Below, in pieces: positions 30,341 to 37,284 of a stretch of DNA of 64,000 nt (positions are counted from its first letter, which is position 1; each line of letters begins with the position of its first letter). Where the stretch lies: assembly GCA_905215695.1 (NCBI GenBank), contig CAJMQN010000006.1:60726-124725 (forward strand). The letters run 5' to 3'. A program made the translations under genes and the position numbers. Origin of the DNA: an uncultured bacterium. GTDB taxonomy: Bacteria > Bacillota > Clostridia > Christensenellales > HGM11417. A model generated the notes under the pieces. It was not told the DNA's origin, made no database searches, and saw nothing but the letters and a program-made list of their open reading frames with translations.

Positions 30341-30369
30341 AGCGGCGGAACAACTCCGCCGCTTTTTTT
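30341..30369. terminator. bidirectional terminator between convergent genes
   Basis: agcggcgga, loop acaac, tccgccgct, then tttttt. The T-tract reaches into the stop codon of the minus-strand macrodomain gene. Confidence 0.7.
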
Positions 30370-31138
30370 ATGCCAAAATCAGTTTTTGGTAGATTTCTCG
30401 GTCGCTGTCGAGGAATACGTCAAAGATAACCCGAACTTTCCGCGGAACCTCAGCAAGCCATTCCCGCACGGTGTCGAGGGCGAGCGCCGCGGCGTCCTCC
30501 TGCGGGTATCCGAACACGCCCGTCGAGATACAGCAGAAGGCGATGCTTGTAAGTCCCATTTCTTCCGCCTTGGCGAGGCAGGAGCGGTAACAGCTTTGGA
30601 GGTCTCTGCGGTTCTCGGGCGTGACATTTCCGCGGACGATCGGTCCCACCGTGTGGAAGATGTAGCGCGAGGGGAGATTATACGCGGAAGTGACCCGAAC
30701 TCCGCCGTTCTTTTCGAGCCTGCCCTTCATCATCTTGTCGCAGTCCAACCGCACCTGCACGCCCGCAAAGGAGTGAATCACGTTGTCGATGCAGTTGTGC
30801 AGTGGCTGAAAACAGCCGAGCAGAGCGGCGTTGCAGGCGTTGACGATAGCCTCCGCGTTGAGCCGCGCAATGTCTCCCTGCCAGAGCGCGATTCCGTCCT
30901 GATACTCGAGACTGTTAACATCCATAATACCCCGCTTTTGGGTGAGGTCAGAGAGGTAGCGGTCCTGCAAACGCAGAAATTCCTCGGAGACAGGCGCGGG
31001 GGGACGCAGGTTGCAGAGTGCGCGGAAAAGCTCCGGCTTTCCCCCCGAATGCGGCAGAAAATAGGAATTCCACCCCTCGGCTTGCAGAATTTCAATCAGT
31101 CTGTCCAAAATTCGGTCGGTTTCATATTCGGTCGGCAT
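30368..31138 (-). CDS. macrodomain protein-ADP-ribose hydrolase of the SirTM-linked type
   Basis: 256 aa with the N-terminal extension LRPPAPVSEEFLRLQDRYLSDL. Macro core motifs are WQGDIARLNAEAIVNACNAALLGC, CIDNVIHSFAGVQVRLDC, IFHTVGP and FCCISTGVFGYP. It overlaps the upstream sirtuin gene by 17 nt. Confidence 0.85.
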   Translation of the reverse strand: MPTEYETDRILDRLIEILQAEGWNSYFLPHSGGKPELFRALCNLRPPAPVSEEFLRLQDRYLSDLTQKRGIMDVNSLEYQDGIALWQGDIARLNAEAIVNACNAALLGCFQPLHNCIDNVIHSFAGVQVRLDCDKMMKGRLEKNGGVRVTSAYNLPSRYIFHTVGPIVRGNVTPENRRDLQSCYRSCLAKAEEMGLTSIAFCCISTGVFGYPQEDAAALALDTVREWLAEVPRKVRVIFDVFLDSDREIYQKLILA

Positions 31139-31964
31139 GAAACACCTCGTTCATATTTTCCGAAAATGAGATTGTCCGCTCCCGCGTCTCGGGAAACCCT
31201 TCCGGTGCGTCCCGATTACAGCGTATGAGTGTCGCGTTCTCATTTTCATAGGTCATCTGTTCAAAGGGAAACCTGATGATGCCGGGGGTGTTGAATCCGA
31301 CTCCGAGTTCGAGAAAGACCGTGCGCCCCTTTGCCGCCCGCCCAAGAAAATCTTCGTATCTATCCCGCATGCGCCGCCAGTCCGCGTTTTCCACGAAAAA
31401 GGCGTCCTTTCGGATATGGATTTCCATTTCTTCGCCGCAGACGGGGCATAGGGGAATCAGTTCCGAGGGAATCCGATAGTCTAGCGTCCTGCTCGCCATT
31501 TCCCTGACAAGTCCTTCGTCGGCGTAGAGTCGGTCGTGGCATCCCTTCGCGCACTGTAAAAATCCGTAATTGCCCTGCACCTCGAAGATTTTTGAGGAAT
31601 CGAATCCCGCCTTTTCGAATTGGCTCTCGACATTGGTGGTGACGACGAAGTGCTCCCGCTCTTCAAAGAGGGAAAATAACCTGCGGTAGAGAGGCGAGGC
31701 GGGCTCTTCGAATCGGTTGACGAGGATATGGCGGGCGTGGTGCGCCCAACGCTCTTCCGAACTTCGGAAGGGATAGAACATGCCCGCATACATATCGGTT
31801 ATCCCGTATTTCTCTTTATAATCCGAAAAATACCTTTCAAAACGTGCGCCGCCGTAGTCGAGTCCTGCGGCGGCAGAAAGTCCCGCACCGCCGCCCAAGA
31901 GGACAAAATCCGCTTGCGCGAGCGCATTCCGCGCCATTTCAAGTCTTTTCTCGAAGGGGAGCAT
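31122..31964 (-). CDS. macrodomain-linked sirtuin (SirTM class, predicted protein ADP-ribosyltransferase)
   Basis: 280 aa with the Rossmann motif LLGGGAGLSAAAG and zinc Cys pairs CAKGC and CPVCG. It has VQGN where classical sirtuins have the catalytic HG, and LELGVGFNTP near the C-terminus. The layout matches the Staphylococcus/Streptococcus SirTM proteins as I recall them. It is coupled to a macrodomain gene. Confidence 0.8.
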   Translation of the reverse strand: MLPFEKRLEMARNALAQADFVLLGGGAGLSAAAGLDYGGARFERYFSDYKEKYGITDMYAGMFYPFRSSEERWAHHARHILVNRFEEPASPLYRRLFSLFEEREHFVVTTNVESQFEKAGFDSSKIFEVQGNYGFLQCAKGCHDRLYADEGLVREMASRTLDYRIPSELIPLCPVCGEEMEIHIRKDAFFVENADWRRMRDRYEDFLGRAAKGRTVFLELGVGFNTPGIIRFPFEQMTYENENATLIRCNRDAPEGFPETRERTISFSENMNEVFHADRI

Positions 31965-31970
31965 ACCGAT

Positions 31971-32605
31971 TTATTCTCCGATCACCGAAAACCGTTTGCC
32001 GTCGTGTTTTCCGCTTTCTGCCTCGTCAATCATGGCAACGGCGTAATCCGCATAGCTGATTGCGCTCAATCCCCGAGCGTTTTCAAAGTATTCTTCCCCG
32101 CCCGAAAGATACCTGCCTGTCCGCGCGCCCTCCGCCCGGAAGTCTGCGGCGGGGGAAAGATAGGTCCATTTCACATCCCTGCGCTCGCGGAGCATATCGA
32201 GCGCACTACGCATACTTTCTGCAAGAGGCTTATAGGCTTCGGGAAAACTCGGAAGTTCCATGAGCATTTTTGCATGTGCGGGATTGACGAAAAGACTGCC
32301 CGCACCGCCCACGACGAGCAGCCGGGTTTCCGTTCCCGAAAGCGCGTCGCAGAGGTGCATAAGCGAAGTCGTGTGTTGGGGGAGCGTCTCTTCCGTCCAG
32401 GCGCCGAACGCATCGATCACGGCGTCGAATCCCTGCAAGTCCTCCCGGGTCAGCGCAAAAAGGCTTTGACAATTTTCTTTGCGCCGAGTGCAAGCTCTGC
32501 TTCCGCATTCCGCACAAAACCTGTCACCTCGTGTCCCCGGGACAATGCCTCGCTCACAAGAAGGCGCCCTTGCTTTCCCGCCGCACATACCACTGCAATC
32601 TTCAT
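31971..32605 (-). pseudogene. YwnB/NmrA-like NAD(P)H-binding oxidoreductase interrupted by a -1/+1 frameshift (or an assembly indel)
   Basis: ATG at 32605 follows aggagg and gives MKIAVVCAAGKQGRLLVSEALSRGHEVTGFVRNAEAELALGAKKIVKAFLR, which then hits TGA at 32450-32452. The rest of the family sequence (SLFALTREDLQGFDAVIDAFGAW..LLVVGGAGSLF..) continues in another frame down to 31971. Adding one A in gtcaaagcc (plus-strand 32462-32470) restores a single ORF of about 211 aa. Confidence 0.7.
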
Positions 32606-32631
32606 ACTGTTGTTCCTCCTAAAAAAATTTA

Positions 32632-32696
32632 GTTGTAATCATTTCAATTATAACAACAACATAGCATGGTTTTGTTGTAATGTCAAGTGTTACAAC
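32632..32696 (-). promoter_or_regulatory. promoter plus two inverted-repeat operators for the YwnB-like/SirTM/macro operon
   Basis: On the minus strand: GTTGTAAcacTTGACAtTACAAC (plus 32674-32696), a 17-nt spacer after TTGACA, then TATGTT (plus 32658-32663). A second imperfect inverted repeat GTTGTTATAAT-tgaa-ATGATTACAAC (plus 32632-32657) covers the predicted +1 region. The RBS aggagg follows. Confidence 0.5.
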
Positions 32697-32740
32697 AAAA
32701 AAATAAAAATTTCGGCGCTTCCGAAAGGGGAATGCCGAAA
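32695..32740 (-). terminator. intrinsic terminator after the Rrf2 gene
   Basis: On the minus strand: tttcggc attcccctttcggaagc gccgaaa, followed by tttttattttttt. Confidence 0.65.
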
Positions 32741-32743
32741 CTT

Positions 32744-33175
32744 TCAGTTGTTTGCGAGAGGGGTTAGTTCGTCGAGAAGATTTTGAAGAGTGACCCCTTG
32801 AAGCTCGCGTTCCATGGCGGACTGCGCGTCCGCAAGGTGCGGAGTCAGCAAGTCATGCACATGTTTTCCCACAGGGCAGGCGGGGTTCGGGTTTTCATGG
32901 AAGTGGAAGAGCAAATCCTCCGCGCATCCCACCGCCCGGAAGATATCGAGCAAAGTGATGTCCGCCGGGTCGCGGGCGAGCTTTGCGCCGCCGCTTCCCG
33001 CCGCGACTTCGACGAGCCCCGCGGCTTTCAGCGCACCGAGGGTGCGCCGGATGACAACGGGGTTGACCTGTACGCTTGAGGCGATGAATTCCGAAGTGGT
33101 CTTATAGTTGTTCCCGAAAAACTGTACGGCAAGCAAGGTGTGAACCGCAACCGTAAATCTCGATGCAATTTTCAT
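32744..33175 (-). CDS. Rrf2-family transcriptional regulator (YwnA/HypR-like, two Cys only)
   Basis: 143 aa starting MKIASRFTVAVHTLLAV, with a winged helix (TSEFIASSVQVNPVVIRRTLGALKAAGLV). It has Cys84 and Cys100 and no three-Cys Fe-S cluster motif. The track start at 33211 would put the promoter inside the ORF and was rejected. Confidence 0.85.
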   Translation of the reverse strand: MKIASRFTVAVHTLLAVQFFGNNYKTTSEFIASSVQVNPVVIRRTLGALKAAGLVEVAAGSGGAKLARDPADITLLDIFRAVGCAEDLLFHFHENPNPACPVGKHVHDLLTPHLADAQSAMERELQGVTLQNLLDELTPLANN

Positions 33176-33182
33176 ATCTGAT

Positions 33183-33221
33183 ATTATACACGTACATACG
33201 TGTAATGTCAACGATTACAAC
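33183..33221 (-). promoter_or_regulatory. consensus sigma-A promoter with embedded operators giving a (near-)leaderless rrf2 mRNA
   Basis: On the minus strand: GTTGTAAtcgTTGACAtTACACGtatgtacgtgTATAATatcagatATG. TTGACA is at plus 33206-33211, followed by a 17-nt spacer. TATAAT is at plus 33183-33188, only 7 nt before the ATG, with no SD. The spacer holds the perfect palindrome tacacgt-atgt-acgtgta (plus-strand tacacgt-acat-acgtgta, 33187-33204). Confidence 0.6.
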
Positions 33222-34702
33222 GGGAGGTCTTTTTTCTCGAACCGAACCACGGAGAGAACATAGGCGATGATACCGATAACGGCGAGGATTCCGAGTTTCC
33301 AAAGCCAGGTGAGAGAACCTGCGAGAATGGATGCGCTGTCAAAGAGGGAGATGAGCGTAACATAGTTAAAGTAGTTCATCGCCTCGATGCGGATTGCGCT
33401 TGGAATAACGTGAGAACCGAAGAGTCCGAGTATGGTTGCAACGAGGAAGAACATGGACAGACCTCCTCCCACGCCCATGGATTCCTTGCTCCGGTTGAAC
33501 CAAGCGGACGCGAGGAAACAGATGCCTGAGATTGCAAACATGGTCACAAATGCCCCGAGATTAAAAAGAATAAGTTGTCCGTAGGTGATCGTGACGACAC
33601 TTGTGTCAATGGTCGCGAGACAGACGATTCCGGTCAGTGTAGTAAACGAGAACATGGCGAGGAGGGAGAGAATGAGAAAACTCATCTGTGTGAGGGTGAC
33701 CTGTCTGCGCTTGGTGGGAGTGGAGAGCACGTACGCCATGGAGCCGGAATCCACCTGTCCCGCAATGAGATTGTTTGCGACCATGATCGTATAGACAATG
33801 GGAAGAAGCAGACCTGCCATCTTGAAAAAGATAGAACCGACGATGAGCCCGAACATATCGAGGTCTTTGATTTCAACGAGAGAATTCTGCACATTTTCGG
33901 GGAGCTCATCGAGCATGTTTTTGGAGAGCCGTTCGATGAGCGCGGCGGTGTCCTGCTGAGGGTCGAGTGAAAGCTCGGCACGGAAACTCAGGATTGCGCT
34001 CCGCGCCTCTGCCGATATTTCTTCGGCGGTATATAGGAGACCTTCCTTCTCCAACTCGGGAGGCATTTGTTCCCCGAGCATGTCGGAGATGAACCTTGTC
34101 GCAAAAAAATCGGCATTATCTTCGGAGGTCACAAACTGTTCGATCGCAGTGGCGATGAGCATCTTTGCCTGTTCGGCGGACTCCTCGCCGTACTCGGCGA
34201 GCACCTGGTCATAGACCTCCGCGGCGACGCCATCGAGCACGTATTCGGTACGCTTCTCGTCGGAAAGGTCGTTCCCGTTTGAGAGATAGTATTCGATAAG
34301 AGAATCGACGACATTCCGTTCCAATCCGGTCGCGGCGCATACTTTTTGACGCGCGGTTTCGTCCGAATCTCCCGTGTCCACGCTTGCCGCGTATGTACCG
34401 GTTATCATTTCATAATTGTCACCCGTGCCCGCGAGCAGGGCGTCGAGACCGGCGCGCTTCTCTTCGTAGCCGGAGAGGGCGGTCCGGGTCATGTCATAGT
34501 AGGTCATGGCGTTCTTGTCGATTTCGGAATTGACGTAACTGTCCGTGAACATGTCAACCATGGAATTTCGTATTTCGCTCGCGTCCGAATTTCCCATGAT
34601 GAGGAGAATGGCGGCGAGCATGAAACAGGTCGCAAAGGTCACAAGTGACCAAATGAGAATATTTGCCTTGCAGGACTGTTTGAAAAGCGGTTTACTGAAC
34701 AT
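33215..34702 (-). CDS. ABC-2-type transporter permease with a large acidic extracytoplasmic loop
   Basis: 495 aa with one N-terminal TM segment, a hydrophilic Asp/Glu-rich region of about 250 aa, then 5 TM segments. It overlaps the ATPase gene by 11 nt. Confidence 0.8.
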   Translation of the reverse strand: MFSKPLFKQSCKANILIWSLVTFATCFMLAAILLIMGNSDASEIRNSMVDMFTDSYVNSEIDKNAMTYYDMTRTALSGYEEKRAGLDALLAGTGDNYEMITGTYAASVDTGDSDETARQKVCAATGLERNVVDSLIEYYLSNGNDLSDEKRTEYVLDGVAAEVYDQVLAEYGEESAEQAKMLIATAIEQFVTSEDNADFFATRFISDMLGEQMPPELEKEGLLYTAEEISAEARSAILSFRAELSLDPQQDTAALIERLSKNMLDELPENVQNSLVEIKDLDMFGLIVGSIFFKMAGLLLPIVYTIMVANNLIAGQVDSGSMAYVLSTPTKRRQVTLTQMSFLILSLLAMFSFTTLTGIVCLATIDTSVVTITYGQLILFNLGAFVTMFAISGICFLASAWFNRSKESMGVGGGLSMFFLVATILGLFGSHVIPSAIRIEAMNYFNYVTLISLFDSASILAGSLTWLWKLGILAVIGIIAYVLSVVRFEKKDLPL

Positions 34703-35603
34703 TTTTTTTGAGCTCCTTTTCTCTCAAGAGTTTGTCTTTGAAGTATTTTTCAAGTGTGAACTTGACCTCTGCGATAAATTTGACGTCCAATGCCAAGAGG
34801 TCCGAAAAGAGTTTCCCGATATCCGTGCGGGGGAGGGAGATTGTGACCTGACAATATTCGGGCTGTTCCCGCAAGACGGCATATCCTTTTTTTCGGAATG
34901 TGAGGTAGTCCTCACGGTTGCGGAACTCGATTTTGAAATCGACAAAAGGACGGTTTCGTATGGCGTCTGTGACGGCGACATCGTCGATTCTGCCGCGGTT
35001 GATGAGCGCAACGCGGTCGCAGGTCGCCTCAAGTTCCTCGAACATGTGACTGCTCATGAGTACGGTCTTGCCCCGTGAATGAACCTCTCGTATGATGTCG
35101 AGGAACGCCGCCCGCATGAGGGGATCAAGTCCCGTGGTGGGTTCGTCGAGAATGACGATTTCGGGGTCAGCCATGAGCGCCTCGACCAGTGCGGTCTTTT
35201 GTTTCATGCCCTTGCTCATGCGCCGCAGGTTTGCGGAGGGGTCGAGCTGAAGCCGCTCAATGAGTTCGTTTGCATACTTCATGTCCGTTACGCCGAGGAA
35301 CTCGGCTTGAGATTTCAGGAACTCCGTTCCCGTGGCGAGGTCGGGAAAAGCGATTTCCCCGGGGACATAGCCGATATGTCTTTTGATTTCGCTTGCGTCT
35401 CGCCAAGCGTCAAGTCCCTTGACCCGCACGTGCCCCGCGTCCGGTTTCAAAAACCCCATGATATGCCGAATGGTTGTCGTCTTTCCCGCGCCGTTGGTGC
35501 CGACGAACCCGAACATTTCGCCCTCTCGGATACCGAGGCTTACGTCAAAAACGCCGCGTCCGTCGCCGTAGTCCTTGGTCAGTTTATCGATTTCTATCTG
35601 CAT
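34692..35603 (-). CDS. ABC transporter ATP-binding protein (second NBD)
   Basis: Walker A GTNGAGKTT, signature MSKGMKQK, Walker B IVILDEPTTGLD and H-loop SSHMF. All catalytic motifs look intact. Confidence 0.9.
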   Translation of the reverse strand: MQIEIDKLTKDYGDGRGVFDVSLGIREGEMFGFVGTNGAGKTTTIRHIMGFLKPDAGHVRVKGLDAWRDASEIKRHIGYVPGEIAFPDLATGTEFLKSQAEFLGVTDMKYANELIERLQLDPSANLRRMSKGMKQKTALVEALMADPEIVILDEPTTGLDPLMRAAFLDIIREVHSRGKTVLMSSHMFEELEATCDRVALINRGRIDDVAVTDAIRNRPFVDFKIEFRNREDYLTFRKKGYAVLREQPEYCQVTISLPRTDIGKLFSDLLALDVKFIAEVKFTLEKYFKDKLLREKELKKNVQ

Positions 35604-36529
35604 GACAGCGCACCTCCGAAGTCCTTTTCTTCCCGGTAATAGCTCATAAAATAATCCTCGAGAGTTTCTTTTCTGTGCCGGAAATCCCGGAGTTCTGCGC
35701 CCGCGGCGGCGCGCACAAGCGCATTGATATTGCTGTCGTCCACATTGACAAGCAGGGTAAGCGCATTTTCGTCGGCATCCGCGACGGAGAAGTCCCGGCA
35801 GTCTGCGTACTTTGTTCGGAATGTTTCATATGAAGTTCTATTCCGGAAACCGAGCTCGTAATTCTTGTTGGATTTGTGCCGCAGGTCGTCTGCGATAAAT
35901 TCGGAAACAATGCGTCCGTCCTTGATGATGGCAATGCGGTCGCAGGTCGTGTCCACTTCAGTGAAAATGTGGCTCGAGAGGAGAACGGTTTTGCCCCGCG
36001 CCTTCTCCCGTCGCACGAATTCGATAAAAATTTCTTGCATGACAGGGTCAAGACCGCTTGTAGGCTCGTCGAGAATGAGAATGTCAGGGTCGTGCATAAA
36101 CGCCGCGACAACGGCGAGTTTTCGCTTGACGCCCAAGCTCATGCGCTTTGTCTCTCCCGACGGGTCGAGTTCAAAGAGTTCGATGAGCTCATCGATTTGG
36201 GCGTCGCAGTCATGTTTCCGAAGCCCTTTCATCATGTCAAGGAATTCCCAACCCGTAAGTCCTGCGGGGAGCGCGATTTCGCCGGGAAGATAACCGACCC
36301 GGTCCATCACTTCCGCATAGTGGGGGAAACTTTCCTTTCCGAAGAGCGTAACGCTTCCCGCGTCGGGTTTTGAAAACCCCATCAGGTGCCGAATTGTAGT
36401 GGACTTTCCCGCGCCGTTCGGACCCAAGAATCCGAACACTTCACCCTCGTTGACCTCGAAGTTTACGTCGAAAACACCGCGCCCGTGTCCGTAGTCCTTG
36501 GTCAGGCATTCTACGCCGATCTGTTTCAA
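35594..36529 (-). CDS. ABC transporter ATP-binding protein (first NBD)
   Basis: Walker A GPNGAGKST, signature MSLGVKRK, Walker B ILILDEPTSGLD and H-loop SSHIF. It starts with TTG, 10 nt after aaggagg, and overlaps the next gene by 10 nt. Confidence 0.9.
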   Translation of the reverse strand: MKQIGVECLTKDYGHGRGVFDVNFEVNEGEVFGFLGPNGAGKSTTIRHLMGFSKPDAGSVTLFGKESFPHYAEVMDRVGYLPGEIALPAGLTGWEFLDMMKGLRKHDCDAQIDELIELFELDPSGETKRMSLGVKRKLAVVAAFMHDPDILILDEPTSGLDPVMQEIFIEFVRREKARGKTVLLSSHIFTEVDTTCDRIAIIKDGRIVSEFIADDLRHKSNKNYELGFRNRTSYETFRTKYADCRDFSVADADENALTLLVNVDDSNINALVRAAAGAELRDFRHRKETLEDYFMSYYREEKDFGGALSCR

Positions 36530-36568
36530 TATGTAGAACCTCCTTTTTGGAACAAAATAGTTTTTAGC

Positions 36569-36597
36569 TTTACACTTGTATAATTATATGCTATACT
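36569..36597 (+). promoter_or_regulatory. candidate sigma-A promoter for the TetR gene (divergent from the ABC operon)
   Basis: tttaca (36569-36574), a 17-nt spacer, then tatact (36592-36597). Confidence 0.45.
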
Positions 36598-36672
36598 GTA
36601 AAAAACGAAACGAAAAACGCGCATACATGCGCGGGGAAGTGTTTGAAAAGCATACAGAGGAGGCATTTTTGT

Positions 36673-37284
36673 ATGGAAAAGGAGCGCAGAGAGGACGTCC
36701 GTATCTTTAAGACAAAGCGGGACCTTCGGGCTGCGATGCTCCGGCTGTTGGAACGGGAAAGTTTCGGCAAGCTCAGCGTAAGTGATATCTGCGCCGAAGC
36801 GATGGTCAACCGCATGACTTTCTATAAGCATTACCAGGACAAATATGATCTTTTGAATGACCTGATATTGGAGGTCAAGCGTTCCATTGTGGCGCGCTGT
36901 GCCGAGACGGAACCCGGAGAAGCGATTGCGGAGGACCCTACGGGGTTTCTTTGCCGCATGATTGAAGCCGTAGCGGACGAGTGCTTGGAGCGCAAAAAGC
37001 TCATGACCTCGCTTGAAAACGACGAAGTAGTGCTCACTATGATTTCAACAACCATCGAAAAGGCGATGCGGGAGCTTTTGACCGCGCTTGACCGAAGGTA
37101 CCCGCTCCGATACCCGATCGACGCCTTGGCGGCGGCGGTGACGGGAGCGGCGTCCTTTCTCATTCGGTTTTGGCTCAATCATCAGCCCGAGAAATCAAAA
37201 GAGACCTTCCTTCTCGAGACGGGGAACTTTTTTCGGGATCTCATGAAGGCGGACGTACTCTTTCTTACTCCGCCGCAAATATAA
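36673..37284 (+). CDS. TetR/AcrR-family transcriptional regulator
   Basis: ATG at 36673 gives MEKERREDVRIFKTKRDLRAAMLRLLERESFGKLSVSDICAEAMVNRMTFYKHY, a TetR N-terminal HTH. It is divergent from the ABC exporter. Confidence 0.85.
   Translation: MEKERREDVRIFKTKRDLRAAMLRLLERESFGKLSVSDICAEAMVNRMTFYKHYQDKYDLLNDLILEVKRSIVARCAETEPGEAIAEDPTGFLCRMIEAVADECLERKKLMTSLENDEVVLTMISTTIEKAMRELLTALDRRYPLRYPIDALAAAVTGAASFLIRFWLNHQPEKSKETFLLETGNFFRDLMKADVLFLTPPQI

What the first reader, a model, noticed from the sequence alone, without database searches (positions are those of the whole stretch)
30368..31964. Orphan SirTM sirtuin and macrodomain pair with no GcvH-L or LplA2 neighbours
The 280-aa Sir2-family protein has the Rossmann GAG motif and both zinc Cys pairs. 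It carries VQGN where deacylating sirtuins have the catalytic HG. It overlaps a macrodomain gene of the SirTM-associated type by 17 nt. Established knowledge (Rack et al. 2015, Mol Cell): in Staphylococcus and Streptococcus this pair forms a reversible, lipoylation-dependent protein ADP-ribosylation system. There it acts on a GcvH-like carrier encoded in the same operon, together with the lipoate ligase LplA2, and it is linked to oxidative stress. Here neither a GcvH-like gene nor a lipoate ligase gene is present within the visible flanks. The operon partner is instead a YwnB-like NAD(P)H-binding protein, and an Rrf2 regulator sits upstream. The target of this writer/eraser pair is therefore unknown. 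It may differ from the described system.
Basis: partly seen in the sequence, partly recalled or inferred. Interest (0 to 1): 0.6.

Follow-up and report, generated by a model that had tools for sequence, protein, structure and literature searches.

The report
Rrf2-controlled lone SirTM/zinc-macrodomain pair
This is an ordinary member of a published and very common gene pair that adds and removes ADP-ribose on a still unknown protein; here it sits behind a quinone-sensing repressor and a broken quinone-reductase gene, which links it to electrophile stress but does not reveal its target.

Summary
Window 31964-31122 (-) encodes a class M sirtuin (SirTM). It matches the S. pyogenes SirTM structure 5A3A at E 2.7e-55 and has Gln130 where deacylases have the catalytic His. 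It overlaps by 17 nt a zinc macrodomain gene (31138-30368) that scores above NCBI's cut-off for protein-ADP-ribose hydrolase.

No GcvH gene was found in the 96%-complete genome. The only lipoate ligase lies on another contig.

"Orphan" is not unusual, though. Rack 2015 and Ariza 2024 already describe lone pairs and call their targets unknown. This scan has noted such pairs in at least 20 other genomes.

What I add:
- The upstream Rrf2 is a YwnA/SifR-type monothiol quinone sensor.
- Its published operator, TGTAA-N9-TTACA, lies on the -35 of both its own promoter and the operon promoter. Only three exact copies exist in the genome.
- The YwnB-like gene is split by a one-base frameshift.
- In the order sample, 43 of 50 SirTM-bearing genomes lack GcvH and 35 of 50 lack any lipoate ligase.
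- Across 169 related loci, the pair travels with HxlR or Rrf2 regulators and small reductases.

Verdict: a new member of a known kind. The target remains unknown.

The parts
33183..33211 (-). Promoter of the rrf2 gene: TTGACA, 17-nt spacer, TATAAT (12 of 12). The -10 ends 7 nt before the ATG, so the transcript is probably leaderless.
33201..33219 (.). Operator O-rrf2: an exact TGTAA-N9-TTACA palindrome that encloses the -35 hexamer of the rrf2 promoter.
   Evidence: motif published for SifR and HypR in PMC9218516
32744..33175 (-). YwnA/SifR-type monothiol Rrf2 repressor, 143 aa. The conserved Cys100 lies in the motif HENPNPACPVG.
   Evidence: Pfam Rrf2 104 bits; PDB 1YLF E 4.7e-33 and B. subtilis YwnA 1XD7 E 2e-30; Cys invariant in 13 Rrf2 proteins of SirTM loci
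32710..32726 (-). Terminator-like hairpin plus T-run after rrf2.
32658..32686 (-). Operon promoter: TTGACA, 17-nt spacer, TATGTT, with TG before the -10 hexamer.
32676..32694 (.). Operator O1 of the operon: an exact TGTAA-N9-TTACA palindrome that encloses the -35 hexamer.
32634..32652 (.). Operator O2 of the operon: TATAA-N9-TTACA (one mismatch), just downstream of the -10. Exact second operators occupy the same position in related loci.
   Evidence: read; same layout in L004, L005, L135, L154, L163, L032 and L088
31971..32605 (-). YwnB-like NAD(P)H-binding (quinone reductase type) gene, split by a one-base frameshift at 32464-32463. The first frame stops at TGA 32452-32450 after 51 codons. 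The rest continues in another frame to 31971.
   Evidence: alignment A1 with the intact 213-aa homologue of L004; Pfam NAD_binding_10 matches only profile positions 56-183
31122..31964 (-). SirTM (class M sirtuin, predicted protein mono-ADP-ribosyltransferase), 280 aa. The start lies 6 nt after the ywnB stop.
30368..31138 (-). Zinc-dependent MacroD-type macrodomain (protein-ADP-ribose hydrolase), 256 aa. It overlaps sirTM by 17 nt.
30341..30363 (-). Terminator-like hairpin (10-bp stem, 7 G-C pairs) that closes the operon. It faces the convergent glycoside-hydrolase gene.

Best explanation
This is a lone ('operon-type') SirTM/Zn-Macro module for reversible protein mono-ADP-ribosylation, placed under a YwnA/SifR-type quinone-sensing Rrf2 repressor.

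Proposed working:
1. In unstressed cells the Rrf2 dimer sits on the TGTAA-N9-TTACA operators. One covers the -35 of its own promoter. One covers the -35 of the operon promoter, and a second, weaker copy lies after that promoter's -10.
2. A quinone or another reactive electrophile or oxidant modifies the single conserved thiol (Cys100), and the repressor leaves the DNA.
3. The operon ywnB'-sirTM-macro is transcribed and the last two genes are translated as a coupled pair.
4. SirTM uses NAD+ to put one ADP-ribose on an acidic residue of a protein that is not GcvH-L. The zinc macrodomain takes it off again.
5. The YwnB-type quinone reductase that normally heads the operon is inactivated here by a one-base frameshift, unless that is an assembly error.

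Shown here: the gene identities, catalytic and zinc motifs, operator copies and their genome-wide rarity, the frameshift, and the lack of any GcvH match in the genome.

Inferred from characterised homologues: the enzyme activities, quinone sensing, and repression.

Unknown: the target.
For: Enzyme identities: in the observation check.

Regulator. The Rrf2 matches B. subtilis YwnA (1XD7, E 2e-30) and 1YLF (E 4.7e-33). According to PMC9218516, SifR and YwnA form a monothiol Rrf2 class. One conserved Cys (C102 in SifR, C97 in YwnA) is alkylated by quinones, which releases the protein from a TGTAA-N9-TTACA operator. The same paper shows YwnB to be an NAD(P)H quinone reductase and notes that ywnA and ywnB are often adjacent.

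Operators.
- The window has exact copies of that operator on both -35 hexamers.
- Only 3 exact copies exist in 2.05 Mb. The third fronts a second Rrf2 gene.
- The 21-nt extended motif occurs only at these two promoters.
- 10 of 13 Rrf2-linked SirTM loci from other genomes carry exact operators at the head of the SirTM operon, and all 13 regulators keep the Cys.

Target is not GcvH-L.
- No GcvH match was found in this genome.
- In a 301-genome sample of the order, 50 genomes have SirTM. Only 7 of those have a GcvH, never nearby, and only 15 have any LplA/LipB domain.
- Lone-pair Zn-Macros cannot demodify GcvH-L (PMC11490716).

The pair looks functional. Both ORFs are intact. The 90%-identity clusters hold 28 and 27 variants seen on many contigs, and nearly all listed macrodomain members are full length.

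Stress context is general. Of 169 related loci, 85 have a divergent HxlR-type regulator and 13 an Rrf2. Partners are small reductases: PNPOx-ferredoxin, cupin, nitroreductase, FMN reductase, flavin reductase, SDR and YwnB.
Against: - No activity, target, inducer or transcript was measured. Every functional step rests on homology.
- This genome does keep one lipoate ligase and one lipoylated E2 subunit, so a lipoyl-dependent target cannot be excluded for this organism.
- The first gene of the operon is broken, which could mean the unit is decaying.
- A second Rrf2 with the same operator core exists, so which regulator binds here is not certain.
- The window's Rrf2 has a second Cys (Cys84, shared by 9 of the 13), so a disulfide switch like that of HypR is also possible.
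Confidence: 0.75

Rival explanations
1. The module works as in Staphylococcus, on a lipoylated protein. In the absence of GcvH-L, SirTM ADP-ribosylates the lipoyl domain of the genome's single 2-oxoacid dehydrogenase E2 subunit after lipoylation by the one LplA.
For: The genome has an LplA (contig 8) next to a radical-SAM gene, and an E2 with a lipoyl domain plus E3 at the start of contig 6. In the only characterised system, SirTM needs prior lipoylation of its target (PMC4518038).
Against: 35 of 50 SirTM-bearing genomes in the order sample have no LplA/LipB-domain match, and 43 of 50 have no GcvH, so the family cannot depend on lipoylation in general. Lone-pair Zn-Macros do not demodify GcvH-L and lack its positively charged docking patch (PMC11490716). 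The E2 and LplA genes are unlinked to the module, and no exact TGTAA-N9-TTACA operator lies near them: the only three copies are at this locus and on contig 7.
Confidence: 0.12
2. The operon is a decaying remnant. The frameshift in its first gene marks loss of function, and SirTM and the macrodomain are no longer used.
For: There is a one-base frameshift in the YwnB-like gene. SirTM is patchy among relatives: 3 of 7 genomes in the family, and one of those has a split SirTM.
Against: SirTM and the macrodomain are full length and keep every catalytic and zinc residue. Both promoters and operators are near consensus. Close variants of both proteins recur at full length on many independent contigs. 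The accessory reductase varies or is absent in most related loci, so losing it need not disable the pair. The frameshift may also be an assembly error.
Confidence: 0.08
3. The sirtuin is an ordinary NAD-dependent deacylase (CobB-like), or a defence-type Sir2 NADase, and the macrodomain only clears O-acyl-ADP-ribose.
For: The weak Pfam SIR2 hit, and weak matches to CobB models. Several MacroD-type macrodomains deacetylate O-acetyl-ADP-ribose (names of the models).
Against: The catalytic His is replaced by Gln130, as in SirTMs, which showed no deacylase activity in the assays of PMC4518038. CobB models score about a tenth of their cut-offs. The best match by far is SpySirTM. Neither protein matches any PADLOC defence model. 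The macrodomain passes the equivalog model for the SirTM-linked protein-ADP-ribose hydrolase.
Confidence: 0.03

Closest known systems
Lone ('operon-type') SirTM/Zn-Macro pairs, for example those of Enterococcus faecalis, Treponema pedis and Methanobrevibacter oralis (Rack et al. 2015, PMC4518038; Ariza et al. 2024, PMC11490716; PDB 8RSI-8RSK)
   Same: A two-gene writer/eraser unit with overlapping genes, Gln in place of the sirtuin His, a zinc motif in the macrodomain, no GcvH-L or LplA2, and an unknown target. The window's macrodomain matches 8RSI best (E 1.3e-70).
   Different: The gene order here is SirTM then Macro, seen in 26 of 169 loci against 120 with Macro first. The unit is fused behind a ywnA/ywnB-like sensor-reductase cassette. 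Regulators of lone pairs are not discussed in either paper, and no searched paper holds both SirTM and HxlR.
Extended SirTM operon of Staphylococcus aureus and Streptococcus pyogenes (GcvH-L, Zn-Macro, SirTM, LplA2, with OYE and LLM oxidoreductases)
   Same: Homologous writer and eraser (5A3A E 2.7e-55; 5KIV E 2.6e-64). Both are associated with NAD(P)H/flavin oxidoreductases and with oxidative or electrophile stress.
   Different: No GcvH-L or LplA2 lies in the locus and no GcvH match was found in the genome. The oxidoreductase partner is of the YwnB type, not OYE or LLM. Control by an Rrf2 quinone sensor is inferred here.
SifR/YwnA monothiol Rrf2 quinone-sensor regulons (Zhang et al. 2022, PMC9218516) and the S. 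aureus HypR regulon
   Same: A regulator of the YwnA type with the conserved Cys, the TGTAA-N9-TTACA operator, and a ywnB quinone-reductase gene as a direct target next to the regulator gene.
   Different: The described regulons contain catechol dioxygenase, reductases and merA. None contains an ADP-ribosylation writer/eraser pair.
Fungal Mfs1 macrodomain-SirTM fusion proteins (PDB 8RSN)
   Same: The same two domains. The window's SirTM matches the sirtuin half at E 2.6e-29 and the macrodomain matches the macro half at E 1.5e-40. The target is also unknown, and the fusion is linked to oxidative stress.
   Different: Mfs1 is a single polypeptide with the macro domain first, and it is eukaryotic.

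Membership tests
Class M sirtuins (SirTM) | The catalytic His of the HG motif is replaced by Gln (QG). | tested here: met
   Gln130-Gly131 aligns with the QG of SpySirTM and is invariant in 15 diverse SirTMs.
Class M sirtuins (SirTM) | The catalytic Asn (N118 of SpySirTM) and the Rossmann GAG motif are kept. | tested here: met
   Asn111 in TTNV aligns with TTNA of 5A3A. Gly24, Gly28, Ser30 and Asn111 are invariant. The role of N118 is taken from PMC4518038.
Class M sirtuins (SirTM) | Full-length sequence similarity to a characterised SirTM rather than to deacylases. | tested here: met
   5A3A at E 2.7e-55 and 191 bits over residues 10-274. CobB models score 24 and 16 bits against cut-offs of 243 and 320.
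Class M sirtuins (SirTM) | Genetic linkage to a zinc-type macrodomain. | tested here: met
   A 17-nt overlap with the macrodomain gene. A macrodomain lies within 4 kb in 150 of 169 related loci.
Class M sirtuins (SirTM) | Protein ADP-ribosyltransferase activity without deacylase activity. | not testable with these tools
   Needs a biochemical assay.
Zn-Macro (zinc-dependent MacroD-type macrodomains) | A Cys/His/Cys zinc motif replaces the glycine-rich catalytic loop, followed by Dx3H. | tested here: met
   GCFQPLHNCIDNVIH aligns residue for residue with GCFIPMHNCIDNIIH of 8RSI. The motif is described in PMC11490716.
Zn-Macro (zinc-dependent MacroD-type macrodomains) | Passes the curated equivalog model for the SirTM-linked protein-ADP-ribose hydrolase. 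| tested here: met
   NF003163 at 312.6 bits, cut-off 272.
Extended SirTM operon (Staphylococcus/Streptococcus type) | A GcvH-L carrier gene in the operon. | tested here: not met
   The flanking genes are a glycoside hydrolase, a YwnB-like gene, Rrf2 and an ABC exporter. There is no PF01597 match in the whole genome.
Extended SirTM operon (Staphylococcus/Streptococcus type) | An LplA2 lipoate ligase gene in the operon. | tested here: not met
   The only LplA-type gene is on contig 8, next to a radical-SAM gene.
Extended SirTM operon (Staphylococcus/Streptococcus type) | Associated OYE and/or LLM oxidoreductases. | tested here: not met
   None among the ten flanking proteins scanned. The oxidoreductase partner is of the NAD_binding_10/YwnB type.
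YwnA/SifR monothiol Rrf2 quinone sensors | Sequence similarity to YwnA, and a single conserved Cys in the HENPNxxCPVG region. | tested here: met
   1XD7 at E 2e-30 and 1YLF at E 4.7e-33. Cys100 is invariant in 13 homologues. The class is defined in PMC9218516.
YwnA/SifR monothiol Rrf2 quinone sensors | A TGTAA-N9-TTACA operator at regulated promoters. | tested here: met
   Exact copies lie on both -35 hexamers, out of 3 exact copies in 2.05 Mb. The operator is conserved in 10 of 13 related loci.
YwnA/SifR monothiol Rrf2 quinone sensors | Release from DNA on reaction with quinones. | not testable with these tools
   Needs EMSA or anisotropy measurements with quinones.
YwnB-type NAD(P)H quinone reductase | An intact open reading frame with the N-terminal Rossmann motif joined to the substrate domain. 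| tested here: not met
   A frameshift at 32464-32463 splits the gene into 51 codons and 163 codons. The homologue in L004 is intact at 213 aa, 68% identical to the second piece.
Defence-associated Sir2 systems | A match to a known defence-system model. | tested here: not met
   No PADLOC match for any of the four proteins.

The most novel reading that the evidence does not exclude
Lone SirTM/Zn-Macro modules may form a switch that does not need lipoylation, is induced by quinones or electrophiles, and acts on a conserved non-lipoyl protein.

Two observations point that way. The thiol-sensor regulators that front them are of classes known to answer to quinones and related stress: YwnA/SifR-type Rrf2 here, HxlR/DUF24-type in half of the relatives. 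And most carriers in this order have no lipoate-ligase match.

If so, the Rrf2-controlled form, with its tiny two-promoter regulon, would be a clean genetic handle for finding the long-sought target.
Probability: 0.45. Interest if true: 0.55.

Novelty: new member of a known kind. Interest (0 to 1): 0.3.

Why it matters
GcvH-L is the only protein known to be ADP-ribosylated by a SirTM. Ariza et al. 2024 state that the targets and the role of lone pairs are an open question.

This locus does not answer that question, but it narrows it in three ways:
- The organism has no GcvH match.
- Most related carriers have no lipoate-ligase match either.
- The module is wired to a repressor whose class, operator and inducers (quinones) have been characterised biochemically.

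That gives an inducing condition and a simple repressor-deletion design for an ADP-ribosylome experiment.

The link between lone SirTM pairs and thiol-based electrophile sensors is not in the papers I could search. This scan, however, has seen the HxlR form many times already, so the added value of this one window is modest.

Tried and rejected
- Gene calling by greedy longest ORF. It failed. At 55% G+C, long antisense ORFs (30386-31228 +, 31728-32786 +) beat the real genes. I replaced it by clustering all ORFs and annotating the recurrent clusters.
- A tree that includes extended-operon SirTMs. A sample of 80 Streptococcaceae genomes held no SirTM other than the seed. The alignment-based locus search kept only the 80 relatives nearest to the query. 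The tree therefore covers lone pairs only. Placement relative to the Staphylococcus/S. pyogenes clade rests on the PDB match alone.
- Whether Rrf2-linked SirTMs are one lineage. They are not: the tree needs 12 changes for 13 rows, no better than shuffled labels. The regulator and the partners are swapped around a conserved pair.
The exact 205-aa frameshifted ORF is not in the protein collection, which decides nothing because gene callers may choose another start.
- Defence-system reading. There are no PADLOC hits.
- A target among the operon partners. I rejected this as a general answer, because the partners differ from locus to locus and are absent in many.
- A wider Rrf2 regulon that might contain the target. 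The operator search found only this locus and a second Rrf2-thioredoxin-CcdA operon.
Full report
**What is there**

On the minus strand the window holds, in order:
- An rrf2 gene with its own consensus promoter (TTGACA-17-TATAAT, 33211-33183) and a terminator-like hairpin (32726-32710).
- A second promoter (32686-32658).
- A YwnB-like NAD(P)H-binding gene starting at ATG 32605, behind an AGGAGG.
- The sirtuin gene (31964-31122), which starts 6 nt after the YwnB stop.
- The macrodomain gene (31138-30368), which overlaps the sirtuin by 17 nt.
- A strong terminator-like hairpin (30363-30341), which faces a convergent glycoside-hydrolase gene.

Upstream of rrf2 lie an ABC-2 permease and two ABC ATPase genes. 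There are thus two transcription units: rrf2 alone, and ywnB'-sirTM-macro.

**The enzymes**

The sirtuin is a class M sirtuin.
- It matches the S. pyogenes SirTM structure 5A3A at E 2.7e-55 over residues 10-274. Gln130 aligns with the Gln that replaces the catalytic His, and Asn111 aligns with the catalytic Asn.
- CobB-type models score a tenth of their cut-offs. Pfam SIR2 falls just under its threshold (21.3 against 24 bits), as expected for this divergent class.
- In an alignment of 15 SirTMs from distant taxa, Gly24, Gly28, Ser30, Asn111, Gln130, Gly131 and Cys138/173/176 are invariant.

The macrodomain is a Zn-Macro.
- It passes NCBI's equivalog model for the SirTM-linked protein-ADP-ribose hydrolase (312.6 bits, cut-off 272).
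- It matches Zn-Macro structures 8RSI (E 1.3e-70), 5KIV and 8RSL, and keeps the Cys-His-Cys zinc motif and the Dx3H motif.

Neither protein matches a PADLOC defence model.

**No GcvH-L or LplA2**

The window's assembly is 2.05 Mb in 18 contigs and 96% complete.
- It has no GcvH match at all.
- It has one LplA, on contig 8, next to a radical-SAM gene.
- It has one lipoyl-domain E2 subunit with an E3, at the start of contig 6.
- It has one biotin carrier in a decarboxylase pump.

**This is already known**

- Rack et al. [quoted passage not shown] They list Clostridiaceae, Lachnospiraceae, Enterococcaceae, Spirochaetaceae and Veillonellaceae.
- Ariza et al. 2024 (PMC11490716) treat "alone, extended operon, or fusion" as the three contexts.
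- The same paper shows that Zn-Macros from lone pairs and fusions cannot demodify GcvH-L, although they do demodify PARP1.
- It also states that GcvH-L is the only known SirTM substrate and that targets in the other systems remain elusive.

The family is very common. Two peptide patterns alone found more than 596 species-representative genomes with a relative. 55 of 301 genomes sampled from the window's order have one. This scan has also noted lone SirTM pairs in at least 20 other genomes, several with HxlR regulators.

**The regulator (the main thing I add)**

The Rrf2 protein starts at ATG 33175 and has 143 aa. The TTG of the listed ORF is the -35 hexamer of its promoter.
- It matches B. subtilis YwnA (1XD7, E 2e-30) and 1YLF (E 4.7e-33).
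- Zhang et al. 2022 (PMC9218516) showed that SifR and YwnA form a large class of monothiol Rrf2 repressors. A single conserved Cys is alkylated by quinones, which releases the protein from a TGTAA-N9-TTACA operator.

The window's Rrf2 has that Cys (Cys100, in HENPNPACPVG).

Exact TGTAA-N9-TTACA palindromes enclose the -35 hexamers of both promoters (33219-33201 and 32694-32676). A one-mismatch copy lies just after the operon's -10 (32652-32634).

In the whole genome there are only three exact copies. The third fronts a second Rrf2 gene, followed by thioredoxin-like and CcdA/DsbD-like genes on contig 7. That Rrf2 is 40% identical to this one over the DNA-binding half only.

I reached the same observations independently before reading them.

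**The layout is conserved elsewhere**

- Thirteen of the 169 compared SirTM loci have an Rrf2 of this type, and all keep the Cys.
- Ten of them carry exact operators at the head of the SirTM operon. Usually one encloses a TTGACA and a second lies about 42 nt downstream. Often there is another at the regulator's own promoter.
- The exact order Rrf2, YwnB, SirTM, Macro recurs in a Eubacterium MAG (L154).
- With small changes it also recurs in a Bacillaceae MAG (L132), a Lachnoclostridium isolate (L163) and a Coproplasma MAG (L135).

**The broken first gene**

From ATG 32605 the frame gives a normal Rossmann N-terminus for 47 codons. Four off-frame codons follow, and the frame stops at TGA 32452-32450. 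The rest of the protein continues in another frame to 31971.

Alignment with the intact 213-aa homologue of the closest locus (L004, 68% identity to the second piece) puts the break at 32464-32463. Two bases stand there where a codon is expected.

I could not tell a true pseudogene from an assembly error.

**Comparative context**

I clustered all ORFs within 4 kb of SirTM in 169 loci and annotated the recurrent clusters. The loci were the GTDB-wide relatives plus 40 from the order.

| Feature near SirTM | Loci (of 169) |
|---|---|
| Zn-Macro within 4 kb | 150 |
| Macro then SirTM, adjacent | 120 |
| SirTM then Macro, adjacent (as here) | 26 |
| HxlR-type regulator, mostly divergent upstream | 85 |
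| PNPOx-like protein, often fused to a 2x[4Fe-4S] ferredoxin | 43 |
| Unassigned 263-aa protein | 28 |
| Cupin | 23 |
| YwnB-like gene | 16 |
| Rrf2 | 13 |

Smaller numbers have nitroreductase, FMN reductase, flavin reductase, SDR, SnoaL, Zn-ADH with MarR (Streptococcus suis), radical-SAM/SPASM, DUF1848 or aldo-keto reductase.

None of these loci has a GcvH-L or LplA2 neighbour. That is expected, because the set was selected for similarity to this SirTM.

Four genomes whose SirTM has no adjacent macrodomain, including the two closest relatives, encode a Zn-Macro elsewhere.

On a FastTree of 167 SirTMs, the window's protein sits on a long branch. Its nearest neighbours are other YwnB-linked loci with either regulator type. 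Rrf2-linked SirTMs are not one clade, and the tree does not follow taxonomy: methanogens, Bacteroidales and streptococci are interleaved with Clostridia. The pair looks like a mobile core to which sensors and reductases are attached in many combinations.

**Lipoylation in the carriers**

The same 301 genomes of the order were searched three times, for SirTM, GcvH and the LplA/LipB domain.

| Group | With GcvH (E < 1e-15) | With LplA/LipB domain |
|---|---|---|
| 50 genomes with a good SirTM match (E <= 1e-40) | 7 | 15 |
| All 301 genomes | about 96 | 134 |

In the 7 SirTM genomes with a GcvH, it is always on another contig or more than 100 kb away. A single-contig, 95%-complete genome (G015) has SirTM but neither of the other two.

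These are samples of partly incomplete genomes. Still, the pattern argues that lone SirTMs do not need lipoylated targets in general. For this particular genome, which keeps LplA and one E2, a lipoyl target cannot be excluded.

**Mechanism**

My best reading is a quinone/electrophile-stress operon.
1. Reduced Rrf2 represses itself and ywnB'-sirTM-macro.
2. Thiol modification at Cys100 lifts repression.
3. SirTM mono-ADP-ribosylates an acidic residue of an unidentified protein that is not GcvH.
4. The co-translated Zn-Macro reverses the modification.

The enzyme activities are inferred from the characterised homologues, and the regulation from the SifR work. Nothing here identifies the target.

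The organism is an uncultured gut Clostridia lineage. A same-family genome carries the record title "Clostridia bacterium isolate HGM11417".

**Verdict**

- Observation: confirmed.
- Interpretation: partly supported. The identification is right, but "orphan" is the common, published state.
- Novelty: a new member of a known kind, with a well-supported regulatory annotation as the modest addition.

Noticed in passing
own genome, contig 7: 125430-126984 (locus L210: 1931-3484); outside the window: The third and only other exact TGTAA-N9-TTACA site in the genome overlaps the -10 of a promoter. That promoter fronts a second Rrf2 gene (142 aa, 40% identical to the window's Rrf2 over the DNA-binding half), followed by thioredoxin-like and CcdA/DsbD-like membrane protein genes. 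The two Rrf2 regulators might cross-talk.
   Followed up: partly
window 33173-33211: The rrf2 -10 hexamer ends 7 nt before the ATG and there is no Shine-Dalgarno sequence, so the rrf2 mRNA is probably leaderless. The ORF lister's TTG 'start' at 33211 is in fact the -35 hexamer.
   Followed up: partly
window 30386-31228 (+) and 31728-32786 (+): Long antisense ORFs (280 and 352 aa) run opposite the macrodomain, SirTM and YwnB genes. They recur opposite the homologues in other genomes. They are artefacts of the coding strand's composition, but they beat the real genes in a longest-ORF gene call.
   Followed up: yes
L004, L005, L034 and L097, and their genomes (loci L126-L129): Some SirTM genes, including the two closest relatives of the window's SirTM (both behind the same Rrf2 and operators), have no adjacent macrodomain. 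Their genomes encode a Zn-Macro at an unlinked place (49-66% identity to the window's). I did not examine what lies next to those unlinked erasers.
   Followed up: partly
related loci, e.g. L096:3749-4540 (+): A protein of about 263 aa with no Pfam match sits between the HxlR gene and the macrodomain gene in 28 of 169 SirTM loci. It is the most frequent partner without any annotation.
   Followed up: no
window 33215-37284: Directly upstream of rrf2 lies an exporter unit: two ABC ATPase genes and one ABC-2 permease gene, with overlapping ends, divergent from a 213-aa ORF at 36643-37284. The permease stop overlaps the outer arm of the rrf2 operator.
   Followed up: no
own genome, contig 8: 54342-56257 (locus L001: 536-2451): The genome's only lipoate ligase gene (326 aa, LplA catalytic plus C-terminal domain) overlaps the end of a 312-aa radical-SAM gene. 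That gene may be a lipoyl synthase, which would make this a small lipoate unit for the single E2.
   Followed up: no
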